This document shows positions 6,439 to 41,199 of a DNA stretch of 64,000 bases, piece by piece; within the stretch, counting starts at the first letter, position 1, and each line of letters begins with the position of its first letter. Location of the stretch: NCBI GenBank assembly GCA_045613285.1, contig JAZLAQ010000026.1:10556-74555 (forward strand). Direction: 5' to 3'. A program made the position numbers and the translations under genes. The notes beneath the pieces were generated by a model. It made no database searches. It had not been told where the DNA came from and saw only the letters and a program-made list of their open reading frames with translations. The stretch is from Alphaproteobacteria bacterium. GTDB taxonomy: Bacteria; Pseudomonadota; Alphaproteobacteria; CAAHEQ01; UBA3637.

Positions 6439-7569
6439 TTAACCACCGATACCCATGCCAGATACCATTTGATCCTGCATCTCAAATGTTCCCATAACAG
6501 CCCAAGCTACTGTTGCAGCAATAGCTAGAATAGCAAAGTTGTTCAGCCACGCAGCCTTTTGTTCAATAACACGTACAGCATTTTCCATCCAGTCATCTGC
6601 CAAGTGAGACAAAGCTTCGGGAAAGTTATTTAGTTCAGCATAAATACGTAAATCACCGACAACTTCTTCATCAGGGAAACCTAATCGGGAACGATTAAGT
6701 GCATCCCCTAAGTTATCACCGTTATTGACAAAAACAAGAGTCCGATCAATGCGGTATAACAAATAAGGTGTGGCATCTGCCCGTAACAAACGTAATGCCC
6801 GAGAAACCGGGGTACCGGCTTTAATTAAAGCAGATAATGATAATAACCAGCCAACACCGACAAAAATACGATAAATTGACCAAGGCGGTATCTTGTCAAA
6901 CAAAGCACGCCAGCCACCTTTCCAACGGGGAAAAGTTAATGATATGAGCACAATGGCTATTGGAAGAGGTAAAAACAACCAATAGGGATGTTCTGCGACA
7001 AAATTAGATAAATTGACCAAGCTGGCAGCAAGGCCTTCCCACTGTAATCCGGGAACGGCATTAACCATAGGGGGAACCAAGAATTTACCAACACCCCATA
7101 TCAATAAAACAGTTAAAAACATCAAAAACATCGGATAAGAAACAGCTTCAATAACCGGTGCTTTCATCCGTCTCATACCTTCTACGACTTTAATTGTGTT
7201 TTCTAAAGCTAGTTCCAAGTTGGTAATATCACCGACAGATAACATTAAAAGTTCCGTAGAAGGTGCCCATCCCCGCAAAGCAACGGATAAGGAATCACCG
7301 CTTCGGATAGAAGCCATCCAGTGTGTAATGGCAATAGCCATTGTGTCATCCGGTTTTTTTCCATCCTTGGAAGCAATTTGGTACAAACGTTCCATAGCAT
7401 CCATTAAAGAAAATCGGTTGCGAACCAGTGCCATCAATTTTCGATAAACAGCCAATCGATCAGAAGTAAATAAACGAACGCACAGCTTGGCATAAGCCAG
7501 ATTGAGTGAATCCGCAGCTGATTTACCTTTATTTTTTTGTTTTTTTTCAACGCCTGCCGCTTCTGCCAT
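6439..7569 (-). CDS. Type II secretion system F family inner-membrane platform protein (PilC/GspF/PilR-like)
   Basis: 376 aa. It has cytoplasmic domains alternating with three hydrophobic segments, a GspF-like layout. It is the last gene of a seven-gene minus-strand operon and sits directly downstream of the ATPase, as in pilQ-pilR or gspE-gspF. Confidence 0.65.
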   Translation of the reverse strand: MAEAAGVEKKQKNKGKSAADSLNLAYAKLCVRLFTSDRLAVYRKLMALVRNRFSLMDAMERLYQIASKDGKKPDDTMAIAITHWMASIRSGDSLSVALRGWAPSTELLMLSVGDITNLELALENTIKVVEGMRRMKAPVIEAVSYPMFLMFLTVLLIWGVGKFLVPPMVNAVPGLQWEGLAASLVNLSNFVAEHPYWLFLPLPIAIVLISLTFPRWKGGWRALFDKIPPWSIYRIFVGVGWLLSLSALIKAGTPVSRALRLLRADATPYLLYRIDRTLVFVNNGDNLGDALNRSRLGFPDEEVVGDLRIYAELNNFPEALSHLADDWMENAVRVIEQKAAWLNNFAILAIAATVAWAVMGTFEMQDQMVSGMGIGG

Positions 7570-7581
7570 TTTTTTATTCCC

Positions 7582-9849
7582 TTACGCTAAAACCGGTTGA
7601 TCTAGTAATCCTGTCCATTTTTCAACCTCTTCAATATCTATGACACCGTCTAACATTCGGGTTATTGCATTTTCCCGAAGTGTGACTCCTTCCAAATCAT
7701 TTATCCAGTAATTCATAGCCTTTTGAGCTTCCCCGCGGACAGATAAATCCAATAAAGTGGCATCCGGTAAAATAAATTCACCGATAACAGTTCGTCCGCT
7801 AACTCCGCGGAAATCACAAAACTCACATCCCGGGCCACGTAAAAAAGAGCGTTCTAAAGCGATATCTCCAAAGGCTTGACGTAATCTCTGAACAGCCGGA
7901 TGGTTGAGTTGGTCCGCCGCTTTTATTCGACAATAAGGGCAAGCTTTTCGAAATAATCGTTGAGCCATCATCCCTTTTACAATACTGGGATCTCGTAGTT
8001 TAAAATCTTCTACCCCGATATCTTTTAAACGCATTAAAATTGAGGCCGCATCGTTTGCGTGAAGTGTTGTCCAAACGTTGTGGCCAGATAAAGCACCACG
8101 GAATGCTAAGTCGGCAGCTGATAAAGTACGGATTTCCCCGATCATCAAAGCATCTGGGTCAGAACGTAATGCAGCAGATAAAGCCTTTGTAAATTCACGT
8201 TCTTTTGCTTCTTCAATCATGGCATTTGTAACCGGCATCTGACGTGCCCCGGGAATAGGATATTCCGGTGGATCTTCTACTGTAATTAGGTTAATTTCAT
8301 AATTCCTTTCCCGTAACATGGAAATCATATTTCGTTGCAATGTGGTGGATTTACCGGAACCGGTCGGACCGGAAATCACAATAATCCCCGTTGGAAAAGA
8401 ACGCATTCGGTAGAATAAATCACATTCTTTTGGTGAAAACCCGAGAGTTCCCAGATTAGATGCTTCTACAATATCATCCTCGGCATACAGCAATCGCATA
8501 ATAACGTATCGGCTACCGAAAGCTATTGGGTTAAATTGTAAACGGATACCCAATACATTCCGAGGTAAAACCAAACGTCCACCGGATCCCCGCAATGGTG
8601 TTCGTCCTAGTTTTTGAGCTGCTTGATATTCATTTTGGGCATAGTTGGCATCTGAAATATCAGAGGAAGCAAAAGCGGCACGGACAAAACTTTCGCCCCA
8701 TTCTTTATTGTATTCCATTTCTGTTTGCATTAAACCGTTGTAACGGAACATAACTGTTGTATGATCTGCAACCACAATATGAATGTCAGAAACTTTCTTT
8801 AAAGCTGCTTGAGATACGATAGTAACAAAGTCACGCTGCATACGCACTTGTTCCTGAGTATCGCTTTCTGCTGTTGGAGGAATGAATTTTGACGATGTGT
8901 TTCTGGCAGCGTATTCATAAATGTCGTTAATAACAATGCTGGGAACATATTCCGGTTTTCCGATTTGCAAACGACGACGACGGGCAAGGTATTCAAAGCC
9001 TAAAACTTTTCCGTCAAATTTTGCAGATTCACTGACGAAAAAACGACCGTTCGTAAATAAAGCCAATAAAGTTCGAGTATCATCTTTGATCGGAAAACTG
9101 CCACTGGCGGTTGTTACGCATTCATTGCCTTTAGAAAATAAATCAGCTAAGAATTTTTCAGAACGGTAATCTAAAACGACTTCTTCTTCCTTGGGTAACT
9201 CGCTGTTTTCAACTGTTGTTTCAAGTGTTTCTGTCTGTGCTTGAGTATCATTAGATGTGTTATTTTCAGAAGATTGTTCTGATACGGTTTGTTCCACATT
9301 TGTGTCTTGTTTGGGTATCAACGTTGAAAATTCATCCGTCTTTATTTCCGGATTAGATATATCTTTTTCAGGAGAAGTAAACGTCAAAGAATTTGTTGGG
9401 ATTTCAGGAATACTAACAACCTCTGATTCTGGTAAAGCAGTTTTCTCTGTTGGTTGTATTTGTTCGTTTGGTTGAGGGATTTCCAAAGAAACCGGTTCTG
9501 TCCTTTCTTCTGAAATAACCGTTTCTGGTGGAATGACAGAAACTACAGGTCTTGTAGGTGGTTGAGGCATAAATCTTTCTTCAGATTCTTTATCTTCCAC
9601 AGTATTTTCCGGTTCTTTATTAGTAGGAAGTTCATCCTCCTCAGAAAAAGGAGTCGTGTAGGGATGTGCTTCGCTTAAAAATGACGGATAGGATTGGGGC
9701 TCATCATCTTTCTGAATGGATTCTTCCACTGGAATATTAGGTATAACGGGTGGCAGAATCGGTGACATTGCCACAGTATCAGATACTGTTTCTTCCTTTG
9801 TCAATATATCGTGTTCGTTTTGCGCATCCTGAAACATTAGAAAACCCAT
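7582..9849 (-). CDS. GspE/PilB-family secretion or type IV pilus assembly ATPase with long disordered N-terminal extension
   Basis: Walker A GPTGSGKST, Asp box TVEDPPEYP, His box TTLHAND, and the SDIHI motif of the N2 domain. The C-terminal tetracysteine CPYC...CEFC is a GspE/PilB hallmark and is absent from Tad TadA/CpaF. The first ~230 aa are Pro/Glu/Thr-rich low complexity. Confidence 0.85.
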   Translation of the reverse strand: MGFLMFQDAQNEHDILTKEETVSDTVAMSPILPPVIPNIPVEESIQKDDEPQSYPSFLSEAHPYTTPFSEEDELPTNKEPENTVEDKESEERFMPQPPTRPVVSVIPPETVISEERTEPVSLEIPQPNEQIQPTEKTALPESEVVSIPEIPTNSLTFTSPEKDISNPEIKTDEFSTLIPKQDTNVEQTVSEQSSENNTSNDTQAQTETLETTVENSELPKEEEVVLDYRSEKFLADLFSKGNECVTTASGSFPIKDDTRTLLALFTNGRFFVSESAKFDGKVLGFEYLARRRRLQIGKPEYVPSIVINDIYEYAARNTSSKFIPPTAESDTQEQVRMQRDFVTIVSQAALKKVSDIHIVVADHTTVMFRYNGLMQTEMEYNKEWGESFVRAAFASSDISDANYAQNEYQAAQKLGRTPLRGSGGRLVLPRNVLGIRLQFNPIAFGSRYVIMRLLYAEDDIVEASNLGTLGFSPKECDLFYRMRSFPTGIIVISGPTGSGKSTTLQRNMISMLRERNYEINLITVEDPPEYPIPGARQMPVTNAMIEEAKEREFTKALSAALRSDPDALMIGEIRTLSAADLAFRGALSGHNVWTTLHANDAASILMRLKDIGVEDFKLRDPSIVKGMMAQRLFRKACPYCRIKAADQLNHPAVQRLRQAFGDIALERSFLRGPGCEFCDFRGVSGRTVIGEFILPDATLLDLSVRGEAQKAMNYWINDLEGVTLRENAITRMLDGVIDIEEVEKWTGLLDQPVLA

Positions 9850-9858
9850 AACGTGTGA

Positions 9859-10863
9859 TTACTTGGTAAGGGTTGGTCGGAAAATCAGTTGATCAATACG
9901 ATTTCCGAATGCAACGGTTACTGTATCTTTTTTTATCTCACGAATGACATGACCAGATGGCAATATATCATTTTTCTTGACGATAATTTCTTCATTGTTT
10001 TCTTTGTTCTTTAACCGAGCAGATAAATCATTACCGACACCTTTTATACTGATAATTGTGTATAATTCTTCAATCATTGGTGCTGTGTAATCCGTTTCGG
10101 AGACAGGCATATCCGCTGTTGCTTCGGTAATTGATGCTGTCGGATTTTTTAATCGATTCATAGCTTCTGTTCGAGCTTGCTCACGAATAGCTTCCTGTTC
10201 GGAAATTTTACGTGCCAGTTCTTCCTCTTCCATTTTTTTCTTTTCAATTTCCAATCGCAGATTTTCCTGTTCTTGCCACCATTGGATACGACTGCGGACA
10301 ACATCTTCACGTTTGGCAATTTCATCCAAACGATCTTGACGATAAACAGCTTTTAAATCTTCTAAATCATTTTTTAATTTTTCTTTTTCTAATTGAAGTT
10401 TTAAGAAAGTATTTCCCCGTTCTAAATCAGCCATTTCTTGGAAAACTTCCGGTGTAATACGACCAAGTAATTGTTCATTCGGCATATCTTTCCCTGAAAC
10501 AGACGGAGCCATTGGTAATGGACCATCCAGCGGTGTTTCAACGATTCCCGGCAAGGGGGCTAATTCTAAGCTACCCAAAGAGGGTCGGTTTGGAAAGTCA
10601 ACAATGCTTTTTCCTGCGATATTTGGGACTTTTAAAGTTTCTTCTAATCGACGTTTATTTTCTGCCTGTATATCGGTATCTGATAAACCTTCAGGGCTTT
10701 TTATATCAGGTAGAGCGACAGGCATTGGTAAATCAGATACAGCTTCAGGCGCCGGGATAGCCATTGGTTCCCCTTTTAGTTCTGTTTGAGTCATACCTAA
10801 TTTAGGCATGGTGCTGAATGCAGTTAAAACCAAGAATAATGTTAAGAATTTTTTATTTTGCAT
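9859..10863 (-). CDS. Periplasmic coiled-coil protein of the pilus/secretion operon (PilP-position component)
   Basis: Signal peptide MQNKKFLTLFLVLTAFS, then a charged coiled-coil segment (LQLEKEKLKNDLEDLKAVYRQDRLDEIAKRED...). Assignment is by position in the operon only. The start was chosen at the internal Met. Confidence 0.5.
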   Translation of the reverse strand: MQNKKFLTLFLVLTAFSTMPKLGMTQTELKGEPMAIPAPEAVSDLPMPVALPDIKSPEGLSDTDIQAENKRRLEETLKVPNIAGKSIVDFPNRPSLGSLELAPLPGIVETPLDGPLPMAPSVSGKDMPNEQLLGRITPEVFQEMADLERGNTFLKLQLEKEKLKNDLEDLKAVYRQDRLDEIAKREDVVRSRIQWWQEQENLRLEIEKKKMEEEELARKISEQEAIREQARTEAMNRLKNPTASITEATADMPVSETDYTAPMIEELYTIISIKGVGNDLSARLKNKENNEEIIVKKNDILPSGHVIREIKKDTVTVAFGNRIDQLIFRPTLTK

Positions 10864-12178
10864 AGATTTTCCCCTCATAAGTCCATTTGTTTTTTGAGCC
10901 AATTGTCGGATCGTAACTGATTTTTACAAATTCCAATCCTGAAAATTTATCAAAGAAAGTTTTCCATTCCCAAGGTGAATATGGAGAACTAACAGATATT
11001 GTATAGTATCTGTATACCGTTTGATTTAATGGTGCCGTGCCATCCGGATTATCGGGCGGATCTTTGACAGTTTGTTCTGAAAATTGTATCGGTAGTCCGG
11101 TAGCTTGTTTGATATCCGTCAATTGTTCTTTTAGCTGACTGGTTGTTAATGACGGTAAAGAAACAATCAATGGAATATCGGAATAAGTAATACTGGCACT
11201 GGCTGATGTTCCGGAAGTATCCCGTGAAATATTAACTTTACTCATTTGATATTCTTCCAAAGCCGTTTTTAACCAAGATAATCTGGCACCGCGTTCATTT
11301 GTAATGCTCCAGTTAGTGGTTAGGCCTGTTGGCGTACAATCAATTTTGCCGATTTTCCAGTATGGAATGGTAACAGAACTAAGCTGATACGCATTATTCC
11401 AACAACGGCTTAGAAATGCATTCGTTTCAGGCATTCTTTCCCACGGTTTTGGTTTTTCCGGAACCGGTTCAATCGGACGAACAACATCCGGTTTTGGCAA
11501 GGTTATAATCTCATCCGGTTCAAAAACACTAATCAAGAAAGAAAATGCCAGATAAAGTAAGAAACCTACTGCTGCAAGAACGCCAATAGCTAGAAAGACC
11601 AATATTTGAGTTCTTTTGGCTGCACTCAATTCAAATAAACGAGTCTTACGAACGTTTGCAATTAAACTTTTTAATTCTTGTTGAACACTACCTTCAACAC
11701 CCCATTCGGCGGGCACGATTTTTATATCCCAATCCGGAACAGCCATCATAGCAAAAAAGGTTCGTTTTGCTTCATCTTCTGTTTCAAATAGAACATCTTC
11801 TTCTGCTAAAATCAAGTCATTTCGGATAGCAACAAACCACCAACCCTCAGGGACTTTAAAAATACAGCAGGCAGAGGTTTTGCTGGATAATGCCGTTGCA
11901 ACAGAAGCAGCTAAAGCGGGTTCACCGCTGTAATGACCTAGAGTTGTTTTACCTAAACCGTATTGAGGTGTGGTGGAAATACGTTGACAGTAAAGGTCTG
12001 CACCAGGCTCTGATTCCATAGCCTCCCGGATTTCTGGAATGGAGTCATCTTGATTCTGGATGGGAGCCCACACTAAACCAACGGCATATTTTGTGTCGTT
12101 AACCGTAACACACCCAACCGACTTTGTCGGTCTATCCGATGTTTGTAAACTATCCAAACGGTCCGTTGTTTCTGCCAT
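10853..12178 (-). CDS. Bitopic inner-membrane protein of the pilus/secretion operon (PilO/BfpC/GspL-position component)
   Basis: 441 aa. A ~190-aa cytoplasmic domain is followed by one TM (LVFLAIGVLAAVGFLLYLAFSFLISVF) and a ~220-aa periplasmic domain. This topology and size fit R64 PilO or GspL-like assembly proteins. No motif-level identification was possible. Confidence 0.45.
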   Translation of the reverse strand: MAETTDRLDSLQTSDRPTKSVGCVTVNDTKYAVGLVWAPIQNQDDSIPEIREAMESEPGADLYCQRISTTPQYGLGKTTLGHYSGEPALAASVATALSSKTSACCIFKVPEGWWFVAIRNDLILAEEDVLFETEDEAKRTFFAMMAVPDWDIKIVPAEWGVEGSVQQELKSLIANVRKTRLFELSAAKRTQILVFLAIGVLAAVGFLLYLAFSFLISVFEPDEIITLPKPDVVRPIEPVPEKPKPWERMPETNAFLSRCWNNAYQLSSVTIPYWKIGKIDCTPTGLTTNWSITNERGARLSWLKTALEEYQMSKVNISRDTSGTSASASITYSDIPLIVSLPSLTTSQLKEQLTDIKQATGLPIQFSEQTVKDPPDNPDGTAPLNQTVYRYYTISVSSPYSPWEWKTFFDKFSGLEFVKISYDPTIGSKNKWTYEGKIYAK

Positions 12179-12186
12179 GATTTCTC

Positions 12187-13833
12187 CTAAAACTCACGCA
12201 TTCTTGCTTCTGGTGACATCGGGGATTCTAAAACCTCCGGCGTCATTAAAATAACGATGACGTCTCGACGATTGCTGTTGTAAGCACGGCCACCTAATAA
12301 GCTCATTTTTGCTTGTCCGATACCGGATGTATTCATTGAATCATTGACTTGTTCAAAACCAGTCAAGACCAAAGTAGAACCGGACTTCATGGCAATTTCC
12401 TGCATAAAGCCACGCATTTGCATTTTAGGTAATTGTACCGTTGTGGATTCTTGGTTTGTACTGTCTTCATCGTCATCCTCATTTTCATTATCGTTATTTG
12501 TGTCTTTTGTGCTGGATGAGAATGTTTCCAGAGCCAATAAATCAGAAATCGTCATGGAAAACAGAACAATTAAACGGCCATGATCTAATATTCTAGGCAA
12601 GATTTCCATCGTGAAACCGTAGTTCAGTGTATCCGTTTGCATATCAATTTCGGAATCATTGTCATCCGAACCACTATAGTTCGTCACATTGACTTCCTTT
12701 ACATAGTTTTGCGAGGTAGTAATTTGAACCGGAGCCACTTTATTGTTTAAGGTTGTAACACTGGAACTGGTTACTAAAGATGTTTTCCCTTGTGTTGAAA
12801 AAGCTTCAATCAGAGCAGATGAATCTTTCCAGTCAGAACTGGGGCGGAGTAATGTCATAGACAATAAACCGGCACCAACACCTGTTGTAGAGGCGATTGT
12901 ATAGGGACTGGCAAATGTAGATGCAATATTTTTAGAATTAAAGACAGCTTGCAAATCTAGACCATAATTGTCCGTGTTGTCCAGTTGAACCTGTAATACT
13001 TTGACTGAAATGGCGACCTGACGGGACAGTTTTTCGTTCCAGTTAGCAATATAAGAAGCAACTTTTTGCATCATATATGGACTGGCTGTAACGGTTATTG
13101 TACCTGCTACACGACTGAATGACAAAGTTCCGTTTTCACCAACAACCTGTTTAACACCTTCTTCAATGCTGTCCCACAGAGCTAAATTGGCAGATGTGGA
13201 CAAAGAAGATGATGTATTCCCACCGGCACCGTTGCTGGTTCCACTACCCATTGTCGTACCTTGTAAATCGGCAGACATTGTTGTTTCTGTTGGCAAAGCG
13301 TAGATGGTAAAAACGCGAGTTTCTTTTGTGAAGAAATTGATGCTGCCGTTTTTATAACGCCACCAGACACCGTATCTATTGGATATGTAGTTTAACAACC
13401 CACTCAATTTTCCGGCATAATTTACCGGAACGGTCTCCGTTGGGACGGCTGATTCGGACTTTAAGTCATCCAAACGGACAGTAATGCCTGTCATGTCTGT
13501 GATTTCTTGTGCTAATGCTTGTAATGTAGCACTTTCTGAAATCATTAAAGTAATACTGTCATCTTGTTCCAGTTGAATAGGCAAGGGATCGCCTTCCATA
13601 ATCTTAACGCTGGAATTACCTAACCAGATGTCATTTTGCATCCGAACCGTATCCACAGGAGTCGGCATATCCGGTATGGTTGCCTGTAATTGATATTCTT
13701 CAATCCGTTCCAAGGCAGTTTCAATTTTTTCGTTTGTTTTTGCTACATATCTATCACAACCGGACAACATAAATATACCGCCGATTAAACCCAATAAAAT
13801 ACCTTTTTTGAATGAATTAACGTTCATTTTCAT
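12187..13833 (-). CDS. Secretin (lipoprotein type, PilN/BfpB/TcpC-like)
   Basis: N-terminal lipobox ...IFMLSGC. The Gly/Ser/Thr-rich C-terminal half ends in the secretin-like ...RRDVIVILMTPEVL motif. 548 aa is typical of type IVb lipoprotein secretins. Confidence 0.7.
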   Translation of the reverse strand: MKMNVNSFKKGILLGLIGGIFMLSGCDRYVAKTNEKIETALERIEEYQLQATIPDMPTPVDTVRMQNDIWLGNSSVKIMEGDPLPIQLEQDDSITLMISESATLQALAQEITDMTGITVRLDDLKSESAVPTETVPVNYAGKLSGLLNYISNRYGVWWRYKNGSINFFTKETRVFTIYALPTETTMSADLQGTTMGSGTSNGAGGNTSSSLSTSANLALWDSIEEGVKQVVGENGTLSFSRVAGTITVTASPYMMQKVASYIANWNEKLSRQVAISVKVLQVQLDNTDNYGLDLQAVFNSKNIASTFASPYTIASTTGVGAGLLSMTLLRPSSDWKDSSALIEAFSTQGKTSLVTSSSVTTLNNKVAPVQITTSQNYVKEVNVTNYSGSDDNDSEIDMQTDTLNYGFTMEILPRILDHGRLIVLFSMTISDLLALETFSSSTKDTNNDNENEDDDEDSTNQESTTVQLPKMQMRGFMQEIAMKSGSTLVLTGFEQVNDSMNTSGIGQAKMSLLGGRAYNSNRRDVIVILMTPEVLESPMSPEARMREF

Positions 13834-14704
13834 CCTCCACCGTATTGATGACTAAAACTCTGTTCCCCTGATAGAATGTTCCAATTGGTGCTGGGGTTGC
13901 CCTTGCAAATGACCGAATTAATGCAGATGAAGCATCTGTAAACGTGCCACGGAAAATAACACCTGCTTCTAAATGATAATCACGATCCAGTTTCCAAACA
14001 ACTGTCCAACCGGATTTTCCACCCCAATCCAACAATAGTTCGCGTAATGTGGCACCGGCATAAGCTTCCCAATCATGAACCGATGTCCCGTAAGCCAGTT
14101 TTTCATTCAGTGTATCCCCTGTTTTGATATGATCATCGGTCTGACTCTTCTGAATTTTCGTTGTTGTTTCAGTTATTGTTGTTTTAACTTTCTTTAACGG
14201 AATCTTGTTACTGGGAATTGTAATAAAAGCCTCATCTTTTGCGGACAGGTTTTCTTCTGCAGGTGGATATTGTTTTGCCACAAGTTCTTCCGTCAAAATT
14301 TCGTCAGTAAGAGTATCTGCTTTATCTGTTTCAATTGTTGTCAGTTCTTCTTCATCGAAGGAAATATAAAGATTATCGGATACGTCTTCTTGTTTCATGC
14401 TTTCACGAACGGATGTTGTCTGGTATCCTGCAGGTCGGGATAAAGACACAACATCATCCCAAGAATCCTCTTCCTCAACAATCTGAATAAAATCGGAATC
14501 TTCATCACAAGGTTCTTCGGTTACTTCCACCCAGTCAGAATCATCTTCGAATGTATCTGCTAAAAACATATCACTTTCTAATACGTTTTCATCAAAGAAA
14601 GCAACTTCTTCGGCACGAACAGAGCCTCCGGCCAAAATGAGGGCCGTTCCCAACAAGAACGCTTTTCTAAAATTATTTTGCTTTTTCATGTTTAACTCCT
14701 TCAT
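13817..14704 (-). CDS. Acidic periplasmic protein of the pilus/secretion operon, possibly a secretin-associated (TcpQ/pilotin-like) component
   Basis: Signal peptide (FLLGTALILAGGSVRA), then a very acidic middle, then a conserved-looking C-terminal domain (WTVVWKLDRDYHLEAGVIFRGTFTDASSALIRSF). It lies immediately upstream of the secretin and the two genes overlap. Confidence 0.4.
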   Translation of the reverse strand: MKELNMKKQNNFRKAFLLGTALILAGGSVRAEEVAFFDENVLESDMFLADTFEDDSDWVEVTEEPCDEDSDFIQIVEEEDSWDDVVSLSRPAGYQTTSVRESMKQEDVSDNLYISFDEEELTTIETDKADTLTDEILTEELVAKQYPPAEENLSAKDEAFITIPSNKIPLKKVKTTITETTTKIQKSQTDDHIKTGDTLNEKLAYGTSVHDWEAYAGATLRELLLDWGGKSGWTVVWKLDRDYHLEAGVIFRGTFTDASSALIRSFARATPAPIGTFYQGNRVLVINTVEDENER

Positions 14705-14713
14705 GTTTTATCC

Positions 14714-15739
14714 TTACCACCGAACAACCCGAGCCATACTTTTAGGTAATTTTTCGTCTTTTTTAGCCAGTTCTGTTTGGGCTGTTTCTTGGGCGGGAAT
14801 AGCCCTTAATAACATCGTATCAATAGGTCTGTTTGTATGTGAAACGATAATTTGATGTTGTGATAAACCCACACTTTTTAACACATTTTCCAACAATAAG
14901 ATCCGTTTATCCTGTAACCCAGCTTGTGCGCAACTGGTACGAATTTCAACAACTAAACGTGGGTCCTGCAAGGCCGCAACACCGAAAGCTTTTACCCACT
15001 TTAATGTTTGTCCTGAAACGGCACTTTCATTTGGATAAAATTTGATTCGCATTTCCTGAGGCATTAAGAACGGAACTTTATCACCGTTTCTTAAACGATT
15101 CGCCATTTGGTCGGCATATTCAGAAACAACAACAAATTTTTGTTTTCTTTCCAAAACAGGCTCTTCCATTTCAACATCCGGAACCTGAGCTAATGGTATC
15201 AGTAATTTACCTTTACGAGTTGGTTGTGAAACAGCAGTCGCTTTTGCCTTTGGAATTTGATGACCTGTTCCGATTTTTTTGGGTGATATAGATTTTGTTT
15301 GTTGAACCAATAAATCTAAATCCGTTTGTTCTTGTTGAATAATTTGTTTACGAACAACAGGTTTTGTTTCTAAAACCGGCCCTTTTTCTTCAACCAGATA
15401 ATTTTTTTCCAATGTTGTAATCACGGTTGGAGTAGGAGCCTTCTGTATTTGTACAGGAACTGTTTTTTCAGATTGAACAACTTTTTTTTCAACTGTTCTG
15501 GTAACAACAGCCGTTTCACCAGGTAACATATATGTCGGCAACAAGAAATCGCCATCTGCGGTAACGGTTGCTACGGAATCTTCTTTTAAGACATTTTGTT
15601 CATCCGGTAATAAGTCGTCAGAAAAAACAGATAAATCAGTATCTTCTGAATAGTATCCATCAGCAAAAACAGTATTTCCGGACAGCATCAGAAATAAAGC
15701 AGAAGTAATCCAAGTTGTTTGTTTTAAATAGTATTTCAT
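14714..15739 (-). CDS. Periplasmic protein, first gene of the pilus/secretion operon
   Basis: Signal peptide MKYYLKQTTWITSALFLMLSGNTVFA. An RBS (AAGGAAA) sits upstream of the start at 15739. The gene is followed by an AT-rich intergenic region. Function is unknown. Confidence 0.45.
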   Translation of the reverse strand: MKYYLKQTTWITSALFLMLSGNTVFADGYYSEDTDLSVFSDDLLPDEQNVLKEDSVATVTADGDFLLPTYMLPGETAVVTRTVEKKVVQSEKTVPVQIQKAPTPTVITTLEKNYLVEEKGPVLETKPVVRKQIIQQEQTDLDLLVQQTKSISPKKIGTGHQIPKAKATAVSQPTRKGKLLIPLAQVPDVEMEEPVLERKQKFVVVSEYADQMANRLRNGDKVPFLMPQEMRIKFYPNESAVSGQTLKWVKAFGVAALQDPRLVVEIRTSCAQAGLQDKRILLLENVLKSVGLSQHQIIVSHTNRPIDTMLLRAIPAQETAQTELAKKDEKLPKSMARVVRW

Positions 15740-15896
15740 ATTCATTTCCTTTTCGGCCAAAAGTTGGAATTGATAGAACATCTTTCGTCAAGCATACAAG
15801 ATAAATGTTTAACAATTTATTAACAGAATATTATTTTTTATTTATTTTTGCAAGAAAAATTTATTTTTTTTTAATTTTTTTACGAAATATCTTTTT

Positions 15897-15936
15897 TTTT
15901 AAATAAAAATGCCCTACCAAACACATGGTAGGGCAT
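15897..15936 (-). terminator. Rho-independent terminator for the small secreted-protein gene
   Basis: Stem atgccctacc/ggtagggcat with an 8-nt loop, followed on the minus strand by a T-run (ttttattt). Confidence 0.6.
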
Positions 15937-15953
15937 TGATTCTTTTTGATTTT

Positions 15954-16301: not shown

Positions 16302-16439
16302 TTTTTCCTCCTTTTTAGAAATAATACCTTAAATCATTTAATGTATTTTTCTGTTATGTACCAGTCGTCTTTTGTCTAGATTGTCAGTTTTCATTTGCTC
16401 TATTATTTTATAAGAGGTCAAATAACAAAGGAGGAAAAA

Positions 16440-18861: not shown

Positions 18862-21030
18862 ATGGATAAAAATATAAAAAATACAATACAGAATAAACAA
18901 ACGACGACCGAATCCGGTCGGAGTATGGTGGAAATGCTGGGTGTACTGGCAGTTGTTGGGTTTTTATCTGTTGGGGGAATTGTAGGTTATACCCATGCAA
19001 TGAACAAATATCATGCCAATGAGATTGTTAGCGAAGTATCTATGATGGCAGTAACGGCATCGCAAGGATTGTTGCTAAACGGTGATTTTACATTAGATGA
19101 ATATGGTGATGAGGTTGCCGGTTATTCGTATGACTACAACGTTGATTTTGGCGGAACAGAAGATCGTTTCAGTATTACGGTTCAGGGTGTAGAAGACGGT
19201 GTATGTGAAAACATAAAGAATATGAACTTCAGTGCATTAAATCAAATTCTTGTCAATGGGACAGCAGACGGAGATTGCACTGATCCCAGTGATGTCGAGT
19301 TTGTCTTTTATGATGATTTTGGCGATTCTTATGAAGGAGAAAACGGTGAAGGAGAAGGAGAACAGCACCTTTCTTGTAATGAAGAACGATGTATGACTTG
19401 CCCAGCTGGAAAAGAAATTTCATGTAAAGATGATTTTAGCGATTGTGCATGTGCAACGAATCCGGAAGATCCAGACAGTTGGGCATGTTATTATATGGAT
19501 TCAGGAAAGAAGAACTGTATTGAATGTCCAGAAGGACAAAAAGTAGTTTTTGATTATGGAAAAGGTTATTGTGTTGATTCTGAGGTAAATGCAAAAGTAT
19601 GTTACGGAGAAATATGCGAGTGTTCAGAGGATGAAACACCTGTTTGTGTAAAGGATGGTTGTGCTTGTGCAAAAGAAAATGAAACAGTTGAGTGTAACCA
19701 TCGAGGATGTATTGTTTGTCCTGAAGGAGAAACACCAAAATGTCCAGCAACGATTGGGAATGAAATAGGTTGCGCATGTATACCACATGTAGAAGATGAA
19801 ACGACTTGGACATGTCGGAGACGTGCATGTATTGGGTGTCAGAAAGGTGAAACACCAATGTGCCCCGAATATGGAGACGGGGAAGAAGCTTGCACCTGTA
19901 TTAAAGCGGGGGAAGAGTGGACGTGTAGTATTAATTATTGTCTGAGTTGTCCAGAAGGGTTCACTCCTCAAGGAGTTCCTGGTTGGGGAAATACCCCTTT
20001 TGTTTGTGTAGATAAGACTAAACCAGATAGTTGGGCATGTGGTGGGTCAGAGTGTATCTCGTGCAATGAAGGTGAAAAACCATTGTGTGGCTCGACCTGT
20101 GTCTGTGTTCCGGATGGTGTTTCTGCTGCATGTAATAGAGGAAACTGTATTACTTGTCCGGTTGGGAAAAAAGCTGTCTGTGGTGATGATGCAGATTTAG
20201 AATATAGTCTTAATTGTTCTTGTATTGATGAAAGTTCTTCTAGTTGGGCGTGCAGTGAAGAAAAGTGTATTGGGTGCCCTGAAGGAAAAATAGCGCATTG
20301 TGATGGATACTCCTGTGTTTGTCTTTCTGAGGAGGCAAAGGAAAATGAGGATTGGGCTTGTAGTGGCTATTCTTGTATTGTCTGCCCCGAAGGGAAGACC
20401 GCCAAGTGTCCTGAATGGGGTGGGTATGAAAACGCCTGTGTTTGTCTTTCTGAGGGGGCAAAGGAAAATGAGGATTGGGCTTGTAATGATAACGTATGTA
20501 TTGAATGTCCTGAAGGTAAAAAAGCTATGTGTTCTGATTATGGGGATGATGAAAGTGCTTGTGTCTGTATATCAGCTAATGCTGTAAAAGGTGAAGATTG
20601 GAATTGTAGTGAAAGTAACTGCGTTACCTGTTCTAATGGGACAATTGCAATATGTGGAGATTATACTTGTAAATGCATTATTGATACTGGAAATGAGGAC
20701 AGTTGGGCATGTAGTTCAGAAGAGTGTATCGAGTGCCCTGAAGGGAAGATACCAAAGTGTTCTGATTGGGGAAATTGTATCTGTATTTCAAAAGATTCTG
20801 AGGAAGGAAGAGATTTCTTATGTGCTCCAGATATGTGTGTCAGCTGTACCAACGGAAAAAAACCGGTATGTGCCGATGATTATGATGGTTATGATACCTG
20901 CATCTGTGTTACCGATATAGATGACGAGGATAGTTGGGAATGTAATTCTGCCGACTGTATTGATTGCCCCGGTGGATATGCAAGATGTCCGAGTAACTAC
21001 GGTGGTTACGGTGATTGTTATTGTACGTAA
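18862..21030 (+). CDS. Giant type IV pilin-like protein with cysteine-rich repeat C-terminal domain (pilin-like adhesin candidate 1)
   Basis: Leader MDKNIKNTIQNKQTTTESG, then cleavage-site G|RSMVEML with Glu at +5 and a hydrophobic helix (GVLAVVGFLSVGGIVGY). A ~130-aa pilin-like globular region follows, then about 14 Cys-rich ~40-aa modules (WAC..C..CPEGK..C..C.C) that include near-identical 123-bp tandem copies. An RBS is present upstream. Confidence 0.75.
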   Translation: MDKNIKNTIQNKQTTTESGRSMVEMLGVLAVVGFLSVGGIVGYTHAMNKYHANEIVSEVSMMAVTASQGLLLNGDFTLDEYGDEVAGYSYDYNVDFGGTEDRFSITVQGVEDGVCENIKNMNFSALNQILVNGTADGDCTDPSDVEFVFYDDFGDSYEGENGEGEGEQHLSCNEERCMTCPAGKEISCKDDFSDCACATNPEDPDSWACYYMDSGKKNCIECPEGQKVVFDYGKGYCVDSEVNAKVCYGEICECSEDETPVCVKDGCACAKENETVECNHRGCIVCPEGETPKCPATIGNEIGCACIPHVEDETTWTCRRRACIGCQKGETPMCPEYGDGEEACTCIKAGEEWTCSINYCLSCPEGFTPQGVPGWGNTPFVCVDKTKPDSWACGGSECISCNEGEKPLCGSTCVCVPDGVSAACNRGNCITCPVGKKAVCGDDADLEYSLNCSCIDESSSSWACSEEKCIGCPEGKIAHCDGYSCVCLSEEAKENEDWACSGYSCIVCPEGKTAKCPEWGGYENACVCLSEGAKENEDWACNDNVCIECPEGKKAMCSDYGDDESACVCISANAVKGEDWNCSESNCVTCSNGTIAICGDYTCKCIIDTGNEDSWACSSEECIECPEGKIPKCSDWGNCICISKDSEEGRDFLCAPDMCVSCTNGKKPVCADDYDGYDTCICVTDIDDEDSWECNSADCIDCPGGYARCPSNYGGYGDCYCT

Positions 21031-27075: not shown

Positions 27076-27099
27076 GTAAGTATGAAGGGAGAAATTCTT

Positions 27100-29166
27100 A
27101 TGCAGAATTGTAAACAGGATGAGCGTGGTTCTCTGATGGTTGAGGTTCTGGCCGTTGTTGCCTTGTTGGGCTTGGTCGGGACGGTTTTGTATCGTCAGAT
27201 TGATAACCGAAATAAAGAACTGGATAATATTAATATGGCTTCTGAAACCCGTATGGTAAAAGAAGCTGTTAAAGCCTATATTCAGGCTAATCATGCTTGG
27301 TTGGAAGAACAATGTCGGGCAAGTATTGACGATGGGTATTGTGAACTTGGGGAAGTTGATGATGATACTCGTTCAGATATTGATTTGTATATGCCGGCTT
27401 ATGCAGCTTGCTATGATGGCGATGGCAATTGCTTGTTGAATAATTATGATATTTATATGAGCGGTTATGTTGTGGATGCTGATTTATCCCCACGGGTGGC
27501 CTTGTATGCAACTATCAAACCGAATTATCAGTTGATTGGTGGATTAAAACGGGCGGCCCGTATTGCCAACCTGATTGGTACGGATGGTGGTGTTTTTGAT
27601 GGTGAGGACGGATCAACCTTGTACGGAACTATGGGGGCATGGGAAACAGCTTGTCCATGGGGAGATTGTGATCAAGGCGATGGTGCTTATTTTGTGGCGA
27701 CAACGGGGATGGATATCTATATTCCAGAAACAGAAAATAATGCCGATAATGTGGTGGCTTTCCCGAAAAAATTAGCCTTAACGGAATTGCATGGTGCTAA
27801 CTATTTGTCTGTTGGTGGTAATTGTGTGACTTTAACGGAAGGTGGCTATTTCTTGCATGAAGCCGGTATAAAGGATGGAAAGGCAACAGACGATAGTGTT
27901 AAACGTGTCGGGACTGATTTATGTGATCCGTTATTTTGGGTCGGGTCTGTATCCGGTGTCGGTTCAGATAAGTCGGAAGCCGGTCAGGTTTATATGAAAA
28001 ACGGTTTGTACATCGGACGGGATAATGCCAATGACAAGCAAGCTATTGCTTTAGAAAAAACAAAGGTCGGCGCCGGTAAAATTACCGTTTTTGATGAAAC
28101 GGGTGATGAACGGTTGGTTTTGAATGCCAGTGGTAAAATTGTCGGTCGAACGAATGATGTCACCGGAAAAGGATTCCAGTTAGATGCTAAAAGTGGGTCT
28201 TTGATTTTGTTTGAAGAAAAGAATGTAACAATAGGTGGAGAGTCCCGCCGTGTTCAGGTCCAAAATACCCGTATTAAAGACGGTGTTCTGGAAACGGGAA
28301 TAGAGTATACCTATAAGGATGATGCTGGAAATAATAGAACGGAAAACTTTAAAGTAGATCCGGCCTATACATCTGTTATGAATGACATTCGGTTGGCTTC
28401 CCGCGGTGGGGCAAGATTGAGTGATATCCTGCCTGATTATATTTTAAAGGGAATGCATACGGTTGAACACTGTGTAGCCAATAATTCTGGTGTGTCAATT
28501 CCAAAGCCACCTTGTCCGGCGGGATATACGCGGGCAATAACGTTTACGTTGACCAGTTTTCCTGTAGGGATTTCCGATATTACTTTAGATTTACCGCCAG
28601 TGACAGTTAATCCGAATGGAGAAGATGGGTCTGTAACCGTTGATCCTGCTGCTGTTCAAGGGCTTGTTAAAACAACGGGTAATAATGTGATAGCTGGTGT
28701 AAACGGTAGTCCTTTGCAGGTAACGCAAATCGGATATCCTTGGATAAAAATTACTGATGATAATAGTAATTGGAATATTCAAATTTTTAATGAAAATGAT
28801 TTACCAAATAGGGCTGATTGTCTGGATGGGAATTATGGATTGGCACAAACATATTGTGTGTTTTCTGAAAGTAATATTAATGCAGAAGATGGTCTTAATG
28901 GTTTTGGGTTGAGTCGAGAAGCGTTTGAGGCACCTGATCTTCCTGATGCGGACAGAGGATGTACTTCAAACACGGATTGTACCAATACGGAAACGTGTGT
29001 CAGTAATGTCTGTACGCCGTTGGGAACTTGTACAAAAAGTGATGGATCATTTGAAGGTGGCAATGTTTACTGCATCGATGGGCAGAAAGTTTATATGGAC
29101 TGTGGTTTGAGTGAGAGTGATACTTGTGAAGACGGAAAAAACTGCGTTAACTATCGTTGTGAATAA
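27100..29166 (+). CDS. Large type IV pilin-like protein (pilin-like adhesin candidate 3) with C-terminal Cys-rich knot
   Basis: Leader MQNCKQDERG, then cleavage-site G|SLMVEVL with Glu at +5 and a hydrophobic helix AVVALLGLVGTVLY. A ~650-aa extracellular region follows. The last ~75 aa carry 12 Cys (GCTSNTDCTNTETCVSNVCTPLGTC...CVNYRCE). The 27082 ATG has no RBS, so 27100 is preferred. Confidence 0.7.
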   Translation: MQNCKQDERGSLMVEVLAVVALLGLVGTVLYRQIDNRNKELDNINMASETRMVKEAVKAYIQANHAWLEEQCRASIDDGYCELGEVDDDTRSDIDLYMPAYAACYDGDGNCLLNNYDIYMSGYVVDADLSPRVALYATIKPNYQLIGGLKRAARIANLIGTDGGVFDGEDGSTLYGTMGAWETACPWGDCDQGDGAYFVATTGMDIYIPETENNADNVVAFPKKLALTELHGANYLSVGGNCVTLTEGGYFLHEAGIKDGKATDDSVKRVGTDLCDPLFWVGSVSGVGSDKSEAGQVYMKNGLYIGRDNANDKQAIALEKTKVGAGKITVFDETGDERLVLNASGKIVGRTNDVTGKGFQLDAKSGSLILFEEKNVTIGGESRRVQVQNTRIKDGVLETGIEYTYKDDAGNNRTENFKVDPAYTSVMNDIRLASRGGARLSDILPDYILKGMHTVEHCVANNSGVSIPKPPCPAGYTRAITFTLTSFPVGISDITLDLPPVTVNPNGEDGSVTVDPAAVQGLVKTTGNNVIAGVNGSPLQVTQIGYPWIKITDDNSNWNIQIFNENDLPNRADCLDGNYGLAQTYCVFSESNINAEDGLNGFGLSREAFEAPDLPDADRGCTSNTDCTNTETCVSNVCTPLGTCTKSDGSFEGGNVYCIDGQKVYMDCGLSESDTCEDGKNCVNYRCE

Positions 29167-41185: not shown

Positions 41186-41199
41186 TTAAGTGATATTCC

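What the first reader, a model, noticed from the sequence alone, without database searches (positions are those of the whole stretch)
6439..15739. Seven-gene type IVb pilus / T2SS-like operon with R64 thin-pilus-like gene order but no pilin or peptidase
All seven genes run on the minus strand with little or no intergenic spacing and are bounded by AT-rich terminator-containing DNA. The gene order is: periplasmic protein, acidic periplasmic protein, lipoprotein secretin (548 aa), bitopic membrane protein (441 aa), coiled-coil periplasmic protein, a GspE/PilB-class ATPase, and a GspF-class platform protein (376 aa). The ATPase carries the CPYC...CEFC tetracysteine motif. This motif, together with the lipoprotein secretin, argues against a Tad/Flp system and for a type IVb (R64 PilN-O-P-Q-R, Bfp/Tcp-like) or T2SS-derived machine. 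From memory, the sizes and order resemble pilN-pilO-pilP-pilQ-pilR of IncI1/PAPI-type islands. However the downstream pilS (pilin), pilU (peptidase) and pilV (tip adhesin) genes are missing here; a housekeeping gene (yqgE) follows on the opposite strand. Three PilV-like giant pilin genes are scattered elsewhere in the window. This is either a decayed mobile-element pilus adopted by the chromosome or an undescribed split secretion/pilus system.
Basis: partly seen in the sequence, partly recalled or inferred. Interest (0 to 1): 0.75.

Follow-up and report, generated by a model that had tools for sequence, protein, structure and literature searches.

The report
Gut alphaproteobacterial type IVb pilus machine
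This is an intact, conserved operon for a type IVb pilus assembly machine (closest to the E. coli bundle-forming pilus and the plasmid R64 thin pilus) in an uncultured gut alphaproteobacterium. Its pilin genes have moved out of the operon, and three very large cysteine-rich pilin-like genes lie elsewhere in the window.

Summary
Seven tightly packed minus-strand genes (6439-15739) encode six type IVb pilus parts: a TcpQ/PilL-domain protein, a PilN-family lipoprotein secretin, PilO/BfpC, a PilP-like protein, a BfpD/PilQ-type ATPase with a CPYC...CEFC motif, and a PilR/BfpE platform. A seventh protein has a C-terminal fold like OmpA peptidoglycan-binding domains and was found only in these bacteria.

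It is not a decayed mobile-element remnant. The same seven genes occur in 56 of 68 related gut and rumen alphaproteobacterial genomes, and most of the other 12 loci are visibly cut by contig ends. All 67 ATPase orthologues keep Walker A and the four cysteines.

In the sister clade (38 genomes in the tree), one to four small PilS/bundlin-type pilin genes follow the platform gene in most loci, and a short second ATPase in 20. In the window's clade (28) that tail is gone. A profile of the small pilins matches two of the three giant pilin-like genes (E 1e-23 and 1e-14). These are 694-856 aa; two have about 90 cysteines each.

No prepilin peptidase lies in the window or within 10 kb of any related operon; the rest of the genome could not be searched.

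Verdict: a new variant of a known kind, of moderate interest.

The parts
14714..15739 (-). g1: periplasmic protein (signal peptide, a conserved short motif at about residues 55-73, a disordered linker, and a C-terminal OmpA-like domain at about residues 205-325). It is a component found only in this lineage.
13817..14704 (-). g2: acidic periplasmic protein with a C-terminal TcpQ domain (PilL / BfpG / TcpQ equivalent, a secretin partner).
   Evidence: PF10671 TcpQ 64.5 bits, cut-off 27. BLASTP to the Bosea TcpQ-family protein 41% and to IncI PilL 33% over the C-terminal domain. pI 4.3.
12187..13833 (-). g3: PilN-family outer-membrane lipoprotein secretin.
   Evidence: TIGR02520 300.6 bits, cut-off 287.65. 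PF00263 Secretin. LSGC lipobox. The only PDB relative is BfpB, 9u5s, E 3.9e-48.
10853..12178 (-). g4: bitopic inner-membrane protein PilO / BfpC.
   Evidence: PF06864 PAP_PilO 91.9 bits over its full length. The N-terminal domain matches BfpC, 3vhj, E 7.7e-7. 25% identity to pilO2 of the Bosea plasmid.
9859..10902 (-). g5: PilP-like periplasmic protein with a long charged, helix-prone N-terminal extension. The likely start is the ATG at 10863.
   Evidence: TIGR03021 pilP_fam 27.4 bits, below the 34.65 cut-off. 31 of 33 orthologues match pilP_fam, best E 5.7e-10.
7582..9849 (-). g6: extension ATPase of the BfpD / PilQ type. It has a variable, acidic, Pro/Glu/Ser/Thr-rich N-terminal extension of about 230 aa and a CPYC...CEFC motif.
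   Evidence: PF00437 219.8 bits. BfpD, 8dze, 299.6 bits over residues 241-747. All 67 orthologues keep Walker A and CxxC...CxxC. Composition of the extension.
6439..7569 (-). g7: inner-membrane platform protein PilR / BfpE (GspF class).
   Evidence: PF00482 T2SSF, two stretches. 38% identity to the Bosea plasmid platform protein, 31% to the BFP-like E. coli one, 25% to IncI PilR.
15740..15937 (-). AT-rich leader and presumed promoter region of the operon. It holds a 30-bp AT-rich tandem repeat (15827-15901). Upstream of it is the terminator of the preceding gene (15908-15937).
   Evidence: No promoter was identified with confidence.
18862..21030 (+). GP1: 722-aa modular pilin-like protein. It has a class III signal (G|RSMVEML), a pilin module, an acidic linker and 13 CxxC-x-G cysteine-rich repeats (88 Cys).
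   Evidence: A profile of the operon-linked small pilins of relatives matches it at E 1.1e-23. AF2 gives an alpha1 helix at 21-73 and a beta head with block-mean pLDDT mostly above 90. The top Foldseek hits are TcpA pilin, probability 0.99, E about 0.1.
27082..29166 (+). GP2: 694-aa pilin-like protein with a different class III signal (G|SLMVEVL) and a mostly non-repetitive body.
   Evidence: It matches the small-pilin profile only marginally (E 0.022). Its own family has 451 representative clusters with lengths up to 1441 aa among those listed. Its link to the operon is inferred only.
38615..41185 (+). GP3: 856-aa modular pilin-like protein with a class III signal (G|RSMVEML) and cysteine-rich repeats (90 Cys, 49-aa tandem units).
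   Evidence: The small-pilin profile matches it at E 1e-14. Its N-terminus is 29% identical to GP1.

Best explanation
The seven genes encode a working, chromosomally inherited type IVb pilus assembly machine of the bundle-forming-pilus / R64-thin-pilus kind.

Inferred roles, by homology:
- The lipoprotein secretin (g3) forms the outer-membrane channel.
- The TcpQ-domain protein (g2) stabilises or localises the secretin.
- The bitopic PilO/BfpC protein (g4) and the PilP-like protein (g5) link the secretin to the inner-membrane platform (g7).
- The BfpD-like hexameric ATPase (g6) powers the platform.
- g1, found only in this lineage, has an OmpA-like C-terminal domain. It probably ties the envelope-spanning complex to peptidoglycan.

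The substrates are pilins made elsewhere in the genome. In the sister clade, small PilS/bundlin-type pilins, and in 20 of the 68 loci a short second ATPase, follow the platform gene. In the window's clade this tail has been lost from the operon.

GP1 and GP3 carry the same N-terminal pilin signal and helix as those small pilins. They are most likely processed by an unlinked prepilin peptidase and incorporated by this machine. They would probably act as tip or low-abundance modular pilins that present cysteine-rich adhesive modules for attachment in the gut.

Shown: gene content, homology, conservation, the pilin-module fold of GP1, and the OmpA-like fold of g1.
Inferred: peptidoglycan binding, use of the giant pilins by this machine, their position in the filament, and the adhesion function.
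For: - **Component identities.** (TcpQ 64.5 bits; PilN-family 300.6 > 287.65; PAP_PilO 91.9; T2SSE 219.8; T2SSF); 31 of 33 g5 orthologues hit pilP_fam; the best or only solved relatives are BfpD, BfpB and BfpC; 25-41% identity to Bosea plasmid, BFP-like E. coli plasmid and IncI pil proteins, in the same order as.
- **Conservation.**: 68 loci in gut and rumen alphaproteobacterial MAGs; all seven genes in 56 of 68 loci, with most of the rest visibly cut by contig ends. In L001 the secretin, PilO and platform proteins are 70-79% identical to the window's, similar to the neighbouring permease (79%). All 67 ATPase orthologues keep Walker A and the four cysteines.
- **Pilin link.**: one to four pilins of about 165-200 mature residues, with a nearly invariant GRSMVEMLGVLAIIGVLSV, follow PilR in the far clade; the one tested (locus L041) matches Pfam PilS at 67.8 bits and Bundlin at 54 bits; their profile hits GP1 (1e-23) and GP3 (1e-14), and also the E. 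coli BFP-like pilin and IncI PilS.
- **GP1 fold.**: pilin module, with TcpA as the top match.
- **Direction of change.**: the near and far clades are reciprocally monophyletic and the plasmid systems are outgroups. Linked pilins are therefore ancestral.
Against: - No prepilin peptidase was found in the 64-kb window or within 10 kb of any of the 68 operons. The rest of the genome could not be searched.
- No small major pilin was found in the window.
- No retraction ATPase was found in the window. No lytic transglycosylase was found either, apart from one weak tblastn match in related locus L042.
- The link between the giant pilins and this machine rests on N-terminal similarity only. Another type IV filament system elsewhere in the genome could use them.
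- The Foldseek E-values for the GP1 pilin module are weak (about 0.1), because the model is large and multi-domain.
- In a by-eye comparison with the OmpA motif, g1 keeps the arginine (R279, nearly invariant) but seems to lack the aspartate. Peptidoglycan binding is therefore uncertain.
- The window's g5 scores below the PilP cut-off.
Confidence: 0.72

Rival explanations
1. The operon assembles a pilus from an ordinary small PilS/bundlin-type major pilin encoded elsewhere in the genome. The three giant pilin-like proteins belong to a different type IV filament system, or are only occasional minor subunits.
For: One near-clade relative (L054) has a small 208-aa pilin just upstream of the operon. 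Every characterised type IVb pilus has a small major pilin (established knowledge). GP2 barely matches the small-pilin profile (E 0.022). GP2-family genes sit in unrelated contexts.
Against: GP1 and GP3 share the leader and alpha1 helix of the operon-linked pilins at E 1e-23 and 1e-14. Giant pilin genes lie directly upstream of the operon in L002 and L018. No second machine is seen in the window.
Confidence: 0.25
2. In the window's clade the machine works as a type II secretion-like display or secretion device rather than as a long pilus. A short pseudopilus pushes or presents the giant cysteine-rich proteins, or secretes other substrates, through the secretin.
For: There are no linked small pilins and no short second ATPase in the near clade. 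The ATPase has a tetracysteine motif like GspE. From established knowledge, the type IVb systems TCP and CFA/III secrete TcpF and CofJ.
Against: Every component is closest to pilus systems (BfpB, BfpC, BfpD, PilN, PilO) rather than Gsp proteins. The GspE model scores 228.6 against a cut-off of 630, and the GspF model 45 against 424. No GspC, GspL or GspM match was found for the seven operon proteins, and the window holds no small class-III-signal ORF that could be a pseudopilin. The sister clade has a classical pilin set.
Confidence: 0.12
3. The operon is a decaying remnant of a conjugative-plasmid or ICE thin pilus that has lost its pilin, peptidase and adhesin genes and no longer functions.
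For: The gene order is that of IncI pilL-N-O-P-Q-R, and pilS, pilT, pilU and pilV are absent.
Against: All seven ORFs are intact in 56 of 68 species-level genomes. Catalytic motifs are conserved in 67 of 67 ATPases. Protein identities are comparable to the neighbouring housekeeping genes. All flanking genes identified are housekeeping genes, and none is a transfer or integrase gene. GC content is unremarkable. The gut alphaproteobacterial operons are monophyletic relative to the plasmid systems.
Confidence: 0.03

Closest known systems
Bundle-forming pilus of enteropathogenic E. coli (bfpA-G-B-C-U-D-E-F-P-H-I-J-K-L)
   Same: The order TcpQ-like (BfpG), lipoprotein secretin (BfpB), bitopic protein (BfpC), periplasmic protein (BfpU position), ATPase (BfpD), platform (BfpE) matches g2-g7. 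BfpD, BfpB and BfpC are the best or only solved relatives of g6, g3 and g4. A BFP-like E. coli plasmid locus shows 23-36% identity. The sister clade often has a short BfpF-like second ATPase.
   Different: In the window there is no linked bundlin, peptidase (BfpP), transglycosylase (BfpH), second ATPase or minor-pilin set. The window adds an OmpA-like first gene, an ATPase extension of about 230 aa and a PilP-like protein extended to 334-347 aa. It is chromosomal in a commensal gut alphaproteobacterium, not on a virulence plasmid.
Thin pilus of IncI-complex plasmids (R64 pilI-V) and the related PAPI-1-type pili annotated PilN/PilO2
   Same: It has a PilN-family secretin above the equivalog cut-off, full-length PAP_PilO, a TcpQ domain as in PilL, a PilP-family protein, and the PilQ-PilR order.
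   Different: Identity is only 25-33%. BLASTP found no counterparts of PilM, PilS, PilT, PilU or PilV, and no Rci recombinase or transfer genes were recognised among the window's ORFs. The ATPase and platform are closer to the BFP-like and Bosea systems than to IncI.
Plasmid-borne type IVb locus of Bosea sp. RAC05 (pBSY19_1) and similar loci in Methylorubrum and Rhizobium
   Same: This is the best plasmid match for PilO, the secretin, the ATPase (38%) and the platform (38%). The order is TcpQ, secretin, PilO2, hypothetical, ATPase, platform. Like the window, it has no annotated peptidase in the locus.
   Different: The Bosea locus continues with a second ATPase, a 199-aa protein and a 508-aa PilV-type adhesin. 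It has no g1 homologue by BLASTP.
Modular type IV pilins (Streptococcus sanguinis PilB/PilC; ETEC CofB, V. cholerae TcpB as large type IVb minor pilins)
   Same: An N-terminal pilin module is joined by a linker to bulky extra modules. PMC8179133 proposes that such pilins sit at the filament tip and mediate adhesion, and reports more than 1,200 of them in 264 architectures, the largest with 860 residues. GP1 has this layout in the AF2 model.
   Different: Here the extra modules are long arrays of cysteine-rich repeats (88-90 Cys). Family members match EGF, ephrin-receptor-like and TNFR-like Pfam models. Several such genes are scattered in the chromosome, and in this clade they replace any operon-linked pilin.

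Membership tests
Type IVb pilus machinery (BFP / R64 thin-pilus kind) | PilN/BfpB-family outer-membrane lipoprotein secretin | tested here: met
   TIGR02520 300.6 bits, above the 287.65 cut-off. LSGC lipobox. BfpB, 9u5s, E 3.9e-48.
Type IVb pilus machinery (BFP / R64 thin-pilus kind) | TcpQ/BfpG/PilL-domain protein encoded next to the secretin | tested here: met
   PF10671 64.5 bits, cut-off 27. It overlaps the secretin gene by 17 nt.
Type IVb pilus machinery (BFP / R64 thin-pilus kind) | PilO/BfpC bitopic inner-membrane protein | tested here: met
   PF06864 91.9 bits over positions 2-419 of 419. BfpC N-terminal domain E 7.7e-7.
Type IVb pilus machinery (BFP / R64 thin-pilus kind) | PilP-family periplasmic protein | tested here: inconclusive
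   The window protein scores 27.4 bits against a cut-off of 34.65. 31 of 33 orthologues match at E <= 0.01, best 5.7e-10.
Type IVb pilus machinery (BFP / R64 thin-pilus kind) | BfpD/PilQ-type extension ATPase and GspF-class platform | tested here: met
   BfpD 299.6 bits against 169 for GspE. T2SSF in two stretches. Motifs conserved in 67 of 67 orthologues.
Type IVb pilus machinery (BFP / R64 thin-pilus kind) | Type IVb major pilin (PilS/bundlin family) in the locus | tested here: not met
   None found in six-frame scans of the 64-kb window. It is present directly after PilR in most far-clade loci; the one tested matches PF08805 at 67.8 bits and PF05307 at 54 bits.
Type IVb pilus machinery (BFP / R64 thin-pilus kind) | Dedicated prepilin peptidase (A24 family) | tested here: not met
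   No tblastn match to an E. coli plasmid A24 peptidase, and no GxGDxK multi-pass membrane ORF, in the window or the 68 loci. Both tests are crude. The rest of the genome cannot be tested with these tools.
Conjugation-associated thin pilus of IncI plasmids / PAPI-1-type ICEs | Carried on a conjugative element, with PilM, the PilV shufflon adhesin, the PilT transglycosylase and the PilU peptidase | tested here: not met
   BLASTP found no match to IncI PilM, PilS, PilT, PilU or PilV. The flanking genes identified are truB, rbfA, algH/yqgE, an arginine decarboxylase and a permease. The operon is monophyletic within gut alphaproteobacteria.
Type II secretion system (Gsp) | GspE and GspF equivalogs, with GspC, GspL, GspM and pseudopilins GspG-K | tested here: not met
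   GspE model 228.6 bits against a cut-off of 630.25. GspF model 45 against 424. No GspC, GspL or GspM domains in the operon proteins. No small class-III-signal ORF in the window.
Tad/Flp pilus | TadA-type ATPase, paired TadB/TadC platforms, RcpA secretin and a short Flp pilin | tested here: not met
   The TadA-family model scores 43.5 bits against a cut-off of 373. There is a single platform gene, a lipoprotein PilN-type secretin and a tetracysteine ATPase.
Modular type IV pilins (PMC8179133) | Class III signal peptide and a pilin-fold module, followed by extra non-pilin modules | tested here: met
   G-x4-E followed by a hydrophobic stretch in all three proteins. The GP1 model has a 53-residue alpha1 helix and a beta head with block-mean pLDDT mostly above 90. 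The top Foldseek hits are TcpA at probability 0.99 but weak E of about 0.1. C-terminal cysteine-rich arrays. GP2 and GP3 were not modelled.
Modular type IV pilins (PMC8179133) | Incorporation into a filament assembled by the cognate machine | not testable with these tools
   The only evidence is N-terminal homology to operon-linked pilins of relatives.

The most novel reading that the evidence does not exclude
In the window's clade the type IVb machine may have given up a conventional small major pilin. It would then polymerise or display only giant modular pilins whose 500-700-residue cysteine-rich arrays have EGF-, TNFR- or ephrin-receptor-like modules in related family members. The result would be a 'bottle-brush' filament or a short display stalk, used to bind host epithelium, mucus or gut protists. 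The lineage-specific OmpA-like anchor and the extended ATPase would be adaptations to handling such bulky subunits.
Probability: 0.12. Interest if true: 0.75.

Novelty: new variant of a known kind. Interest (0 to 1): 0.45.

Why it matters
- Type IVb pili are known mainly from enteric pathogens and conjugative elements, where all genes sit in one cluster.
- Here a whole lineage of uncultured gut and rumen Alphaproteobacteria carries a vertically inherited version. It has an extra OmpA-like component. In one clade the pilin genes have left the operon and diversified into some of the largest pilin-like proteins described.
- Relatives of these giant pilins carry cysteine-rich modules otherwise typical of eukaryotic surface proteins.
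- This gives a concrete candidate for how these poorly understood commensals attach in the gut.
- It also offers a natural test of how bulky modular pilins are handled by a type IVb machine.

Tried and rejected
- **Source contig.** Exact-sequence look-ups of three window proteins, meant to read the rest of the 96,244-bp source contig, found nothing on record. The remaining 32 kb and the rest of the genome could not be searched for a peptidase or a small pilin.
- **R64 record.** Accession AP005147 is not in the plasmid collection. An IncK2/Z plasmid of the IncI complex was used instead.
- **PDB sequence searches.** g1, g5 and GP2 gave only chance-level hits.
- **Pfam on the giant pilins.** None of the three gave a hit. 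Only relatives of GP1 match EGF-, ephrin-receptor- or TNFR-like models.
- **Peptidase search.** A motif scan and a tblastn with an E. coli plasmid A24 peptidase found nothing in the window or in the 68 loci. Both tests are insensitive to distant A24 proteins.
- **GP2-family contexts.** Three look-ups gave short contigs with no pilus genes nearby.
- **Literature.** Searches for this pilus in gut Alphaproteobacteria found no description.
- **Readings rejected.** Tad, T2SS and the decayed-remnant reading were considered and rejected on profile scores and conservation.
Full report
**1. The observation**

The window has seven minus-strand ORFs between 6439 and 15739.
- Sizes are 341 aa (355 from an upstream ATG), 295, 548, 441, 347 (334 from the ATG at 10863), 755 and 376 aa.
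- Neighbouring genes are separated by -17 to +12 nt, which is the layout of a single operon.
- The ATPase contains CPYC...CEFC and the 548-aa protein has an LSGC lipobox.
- Upstream lies AT-rich DNA (GC 0.33). It has a 12-bp-stem terminator at 15908-15937 that closes the preceding gene, and a 30-bp AT-rich tandem repeat.
- Downstream there is no spacer. The platform gene's stop codon is 2 nt from the stop codon of a convergent AlgH/YqgE gene (PF02622).

**2. What the genes are**

Profile searches assign six of the seven.

| Gene | Assignment | Key score |
|---|---|---|
| g2 | TcpQ domain | PF10671, 64.5 bits |
| g3 | PilN-family type IVb secretin | TIGR02520, 300.6 vs cut-off 287.65 |
| g4 | PilO | PF06864, 91.9 bits, full length |
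| g5 | PilP family | TIGR03021, 27.4 vs cut-off 34.65 |
| g6 | T2SSE ATPase | 219.8 bits |
| g7 | T2SSF platform | two stretches |

- For g5, 31 of 33 orthologues match the PilP model, best E 5.7e-10.
- Against solved structures, the ATPase's best relative is BfpD (299.6 bits over residues 241-747), well above GspE at 169 bits and PilB/PilF.
- The secretin's only solved relative is BfpB, E 3.9e-48.
- The N-terminal domain of g4 matches BfpC, E 7.7e-7.
- The TadA-family model scores 43.5 bits. The GspE and GspF models fall far below their cut-offs.
- Three annotated plasmid loci show the same order: a Bosea plasmid, a BFP-like E. coli plasmid and an IncI-complex plasmid with pilL-M-N-O-P-Q-R-S-T-U-V.
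- Identity to them is 25-41%. It is highest to the Bosea and BFP-like systems and lowest to IncI.

**3. The unassigned first gene (g1)**

- g1 has no Pfam, NCBIfam or PDB sequence match.
- It has 63 homologues, all unannotated.
- An AlphaFold2 model built on 36 sequences is disordered over most of residues 22-177. The C-terminal domain is confident, with block-mean pLDDT of 87 or more over about residues 211-320.
- Read by eye against the OmpA motif L-S-x-x-R-A, g1 has L275-Q-D-K-R279-I. R279 is nearly invariant in the alignment. The aspartate of the usual binding pair seems to be missing. Peptidoglycan binding is therefore an inference.
- The invariant columns of the alignment cluster in a short motif at residues 57-73. 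I take this to be a docking peptide, which is also an inference.

**4. Conservation and origin**

- A scan of one genome per species found 68 loci encoding the ATPase at 55-83% identity. By record title, nearly all are MAGs from human, ruminant or bird gut samples; one is titled only 'Rhodospirillales bacterium'. Titles read 'Alphaproteobacteria bacterium', 'Proteobacteria bacterium CAG:495' or 'Candidatus Scatocola'.
- All seven genes are present in the same order in 56 loci. Most of the other 12 loci are visibly cut by a contig end.
- All 67 full-length ATPase orthologues keep Walker A and CxxC...CxxC.
- In the closest relatives (L001, L003, L067) the secretin, PilO and platform proteins are 67-82% identical to the window's. 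The adjacent permease is 76-79% identical.
- The window's flanks hold truB, rbfA, algH, an arginine decarboxylase with a permease, carD, dksA and similar genes.
- The operon's GC content is unremarkable.
- A neighbour-joining tree of the ATPase core plus platform, rooted on IncI, makes the gut alphaproteobacterial operons monophyletic relative to the three plasmid systems.
- This rules out a recently acquired, decaying mobile-element remnant.

**5. Where the pilins went**

The tree splits the operons into two reciprocally monophyletic clades.

- **Far clade (38 tips).** The platform gene is followed by three kinds of gene:
  - a PilS-like ORF of about 186 aa without a clear cleavage motif;
  - one to four tandem pilins of about 165-200 mature residues, with a nearly invariant GRSMVEMLGVLAIIGVLSV;
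  - in 20 of the 68 loci, a second ATPase of about 320-380 aa without the four cysteines. It is 33-38% identical to the second ATPase of the BFP-like plasmid.
- The small pilin tested, from L041, matches Pfam PilS (67.8 bits) and Bundlin (54 bits).
- **Near clade (28 tips, including the window).** Nothing pilin-like follows the platform gene, and the downstream neighbours differ from genome to genome.
- Pilin genes appear only occasionally upstream: a 208-aa one in L054, an 808-aa one in L018, and one of at least 975 aa in L002.
- Near-clade ATPases carry a variable acidic, Pro/Glu/Ser/Thr-rich N-terminal extension. They are 625-977 aa, against about 550 aa in the far clade.
- The far clade and all three outgroups have pilin genes linked to the machine genes. 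The unlinked state is therefore derived (inference by parsimony).

**6. The giant pilins**

- Six-frame scans find exactly three class-III-signal ORFs in the window, all very large. They find no PilS-type small pilin, no short ATPase and no A24-like peptidase.
- A profile built from 65 far-clade small pilins matches GP1 at E 1.1e-23 and GP3 at 1e-14 over the leader and alpha1 helix. It also matches the BFP-like plasmid pilin (E 1.8e-22) and IncI PilS (E 1.4e-12). It matches GP2 only marginally, at E 0.022.
- The GP1 model has a 53-residue alpha1 helix, a confident beta head, a disordered acidic linker and a long array of beta-hairpin repeats.
- Its best Foldseek matches are V. cholerae TcpA subunits (probability 0.99). 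E is only about 0.1 because the query is large.
- GP1 has 88 cysteines and 13 CxxC-x-G repeats. GP3 has 90 cysteines and 49-aa tandem units.
- The three window proteins have no Pfam hit. Members of the GP1 family match EGF, ephrin-receptor-like, TNFR-like and related models.
- GP2 belongs to a separate, large family: 451 representative clusters, with lengths up to 1441 aa among those listed.
- These proteins fit the published concept of modular pilins, in which a pilin module carries a grafted adhesive module, probably at the filament tip (PMC8179133). At 694-856 aa they are at the upper end of what that survey reported.

**7. How it most likely works**

- By homology with BFP and the R64 thin pilus (established knowledge of those systems), the secretin forms the outer-membrane channel, aided by the TcpQ-domain protein.
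- PilO/BfpC and the PilP-like protein connect the secretin to the platform. The BfpD-like ATPase drives pilin insertion into the growing filament.
- g1 probably anchors the complex to the cell wall.
- The pilins are cleaved by an unlinked A24 peptidase. The Bosea plasmid locus also has no annotated peptidase, so lack of linkage may not be unusual in this branch.
- GP1 and GP3 are the best candidates for substrates in this genome. They most likely act as adhesive modular pilins.
- Whether a small major pilin exists elsewhere in the genome is the main open point.

**8. Rivals**

- **The giants belong to another system and a small pilin exists elsewhere.** This stays plausible and overlaps partly with the main explanation.
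- **A secretion or display device instead of a pilus.** This is possible but not favoured by the homologies.
- **A decayed remnant.** This is contradicted by the conservation data.

**9. Verdict**

- This is a real, functional-looking type IVb pilus machine. It is a new variant of a known kind: chromosomal and vertically inherited in gut Alphaproteobacteria, with an added OmpA-like component.
- In this clade the pilin genes are uncoupled and have expanded into giant cysteine-rich modular pilins.
- No description of it was found in the searchable literature.
- Interest is moderate (0.45). It would be higher if the giants proved to be the only subunits.

Noticed in passing
L041:2180-2518(-) and 1715-2131(-); L065:2437-2820(-); L004:2644-3000(-); L054:3597-4025(-): In the three far-clade loci inspected and three of the seven near-clade loci inspected, one or two small genes lie just upstream of g1 and are transcribed divergently. 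The three tested with Pfam match TrbC/VirB2 (PF04956; two pass the cut-off, up to 48 bits, and the third falls just under it at 27.5 vs 27.9). No other type IV secretion genes are visible in the DNA held. The window has no counterpart by tblastn.
   Followed up: partly
window 21277-21498 and 41215-41616: Tandem repeats (46 bp x 4.8 and 123 bp x 3.3) share the core CTCCTCGTAATGACG. It occurs nine times in the window (0.06 expected), only directly downstream of GP1 and GP3. The 253-aa ORF at 40956-41717(-) overlaps this array, has no Pfam match, and looks like a read-through of the repeats. Their function is unknown; a terminator, a recombination site or a regulatory element are possibilities.
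   Followed up: partly
window 15827-15901: A 30-bp AT-rich tandem repeat (2.5 copies) lies in the leader or promoter region, between the upstream terminator and the first gene of the operon.
   Followed up: no
window 16395-18563: A pyruvoyl-dependent arginine decarboxylase (PF01862) is paired with an amino-acid permease. From memory this resembles the chlamydial AaxB/AaxC acid-resistance pair. It lies next to the operon and is syntenic in L001, L003 and L067.
   Followed up: partly
window 7582-9849, residues 1-230 of the ATPase: The near-clade ATPases have a cytoplasmic, acidic, Pro/Glu/Ser/Thr-rich N-terminal extension of very variable length (total length 625-977 aa). The far clade lacks it (about 550 aa).
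   Followed up: partly
L041:12731-13291(+) and equivalents directly after PilR in far-clade loci: An ORF of about 186 aa matches Pfam PilS (33 bits) and Bundlin (27 bits). It has a hydrophobic N-terminus but no recognisable G-x4-E cleavage motif. It may be an uncleaved pilin-like assembly factor.
   Followed up: partly
window 27082-29166 (GP2): GP2 belongs to a large unannotated family of pilin-like proteins: 451 clusters at 50% identity, with lengths of about 450 to 1,441 aa among those listed. They share the first 190-330 residues. One relative sits next to a Laminin_G_3 protein (L074).
   Followed up: partly
window 66-3995: A 1309-aa autotransporter (PF03797 beta-domain, 143 bits) is a second candidate adhesin in the same window.
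   Followed up: no
window 52413-54590(-): A 725-aa protein has a weak ankyrin-repeat match (E 0.0013, below the Pfam threshold) and lies in a low-GC stretch (0.29-0.30).
   Followed up: no
window 20301-20568 and 39614-40048: The cysteine-rich repeats of GP1 (123-bp units) and GP3 (147-bp units) are still 77-79% identical at the DNA level. This suggests recent internal duplication, or a repeat number that can change.
   Followed up: no
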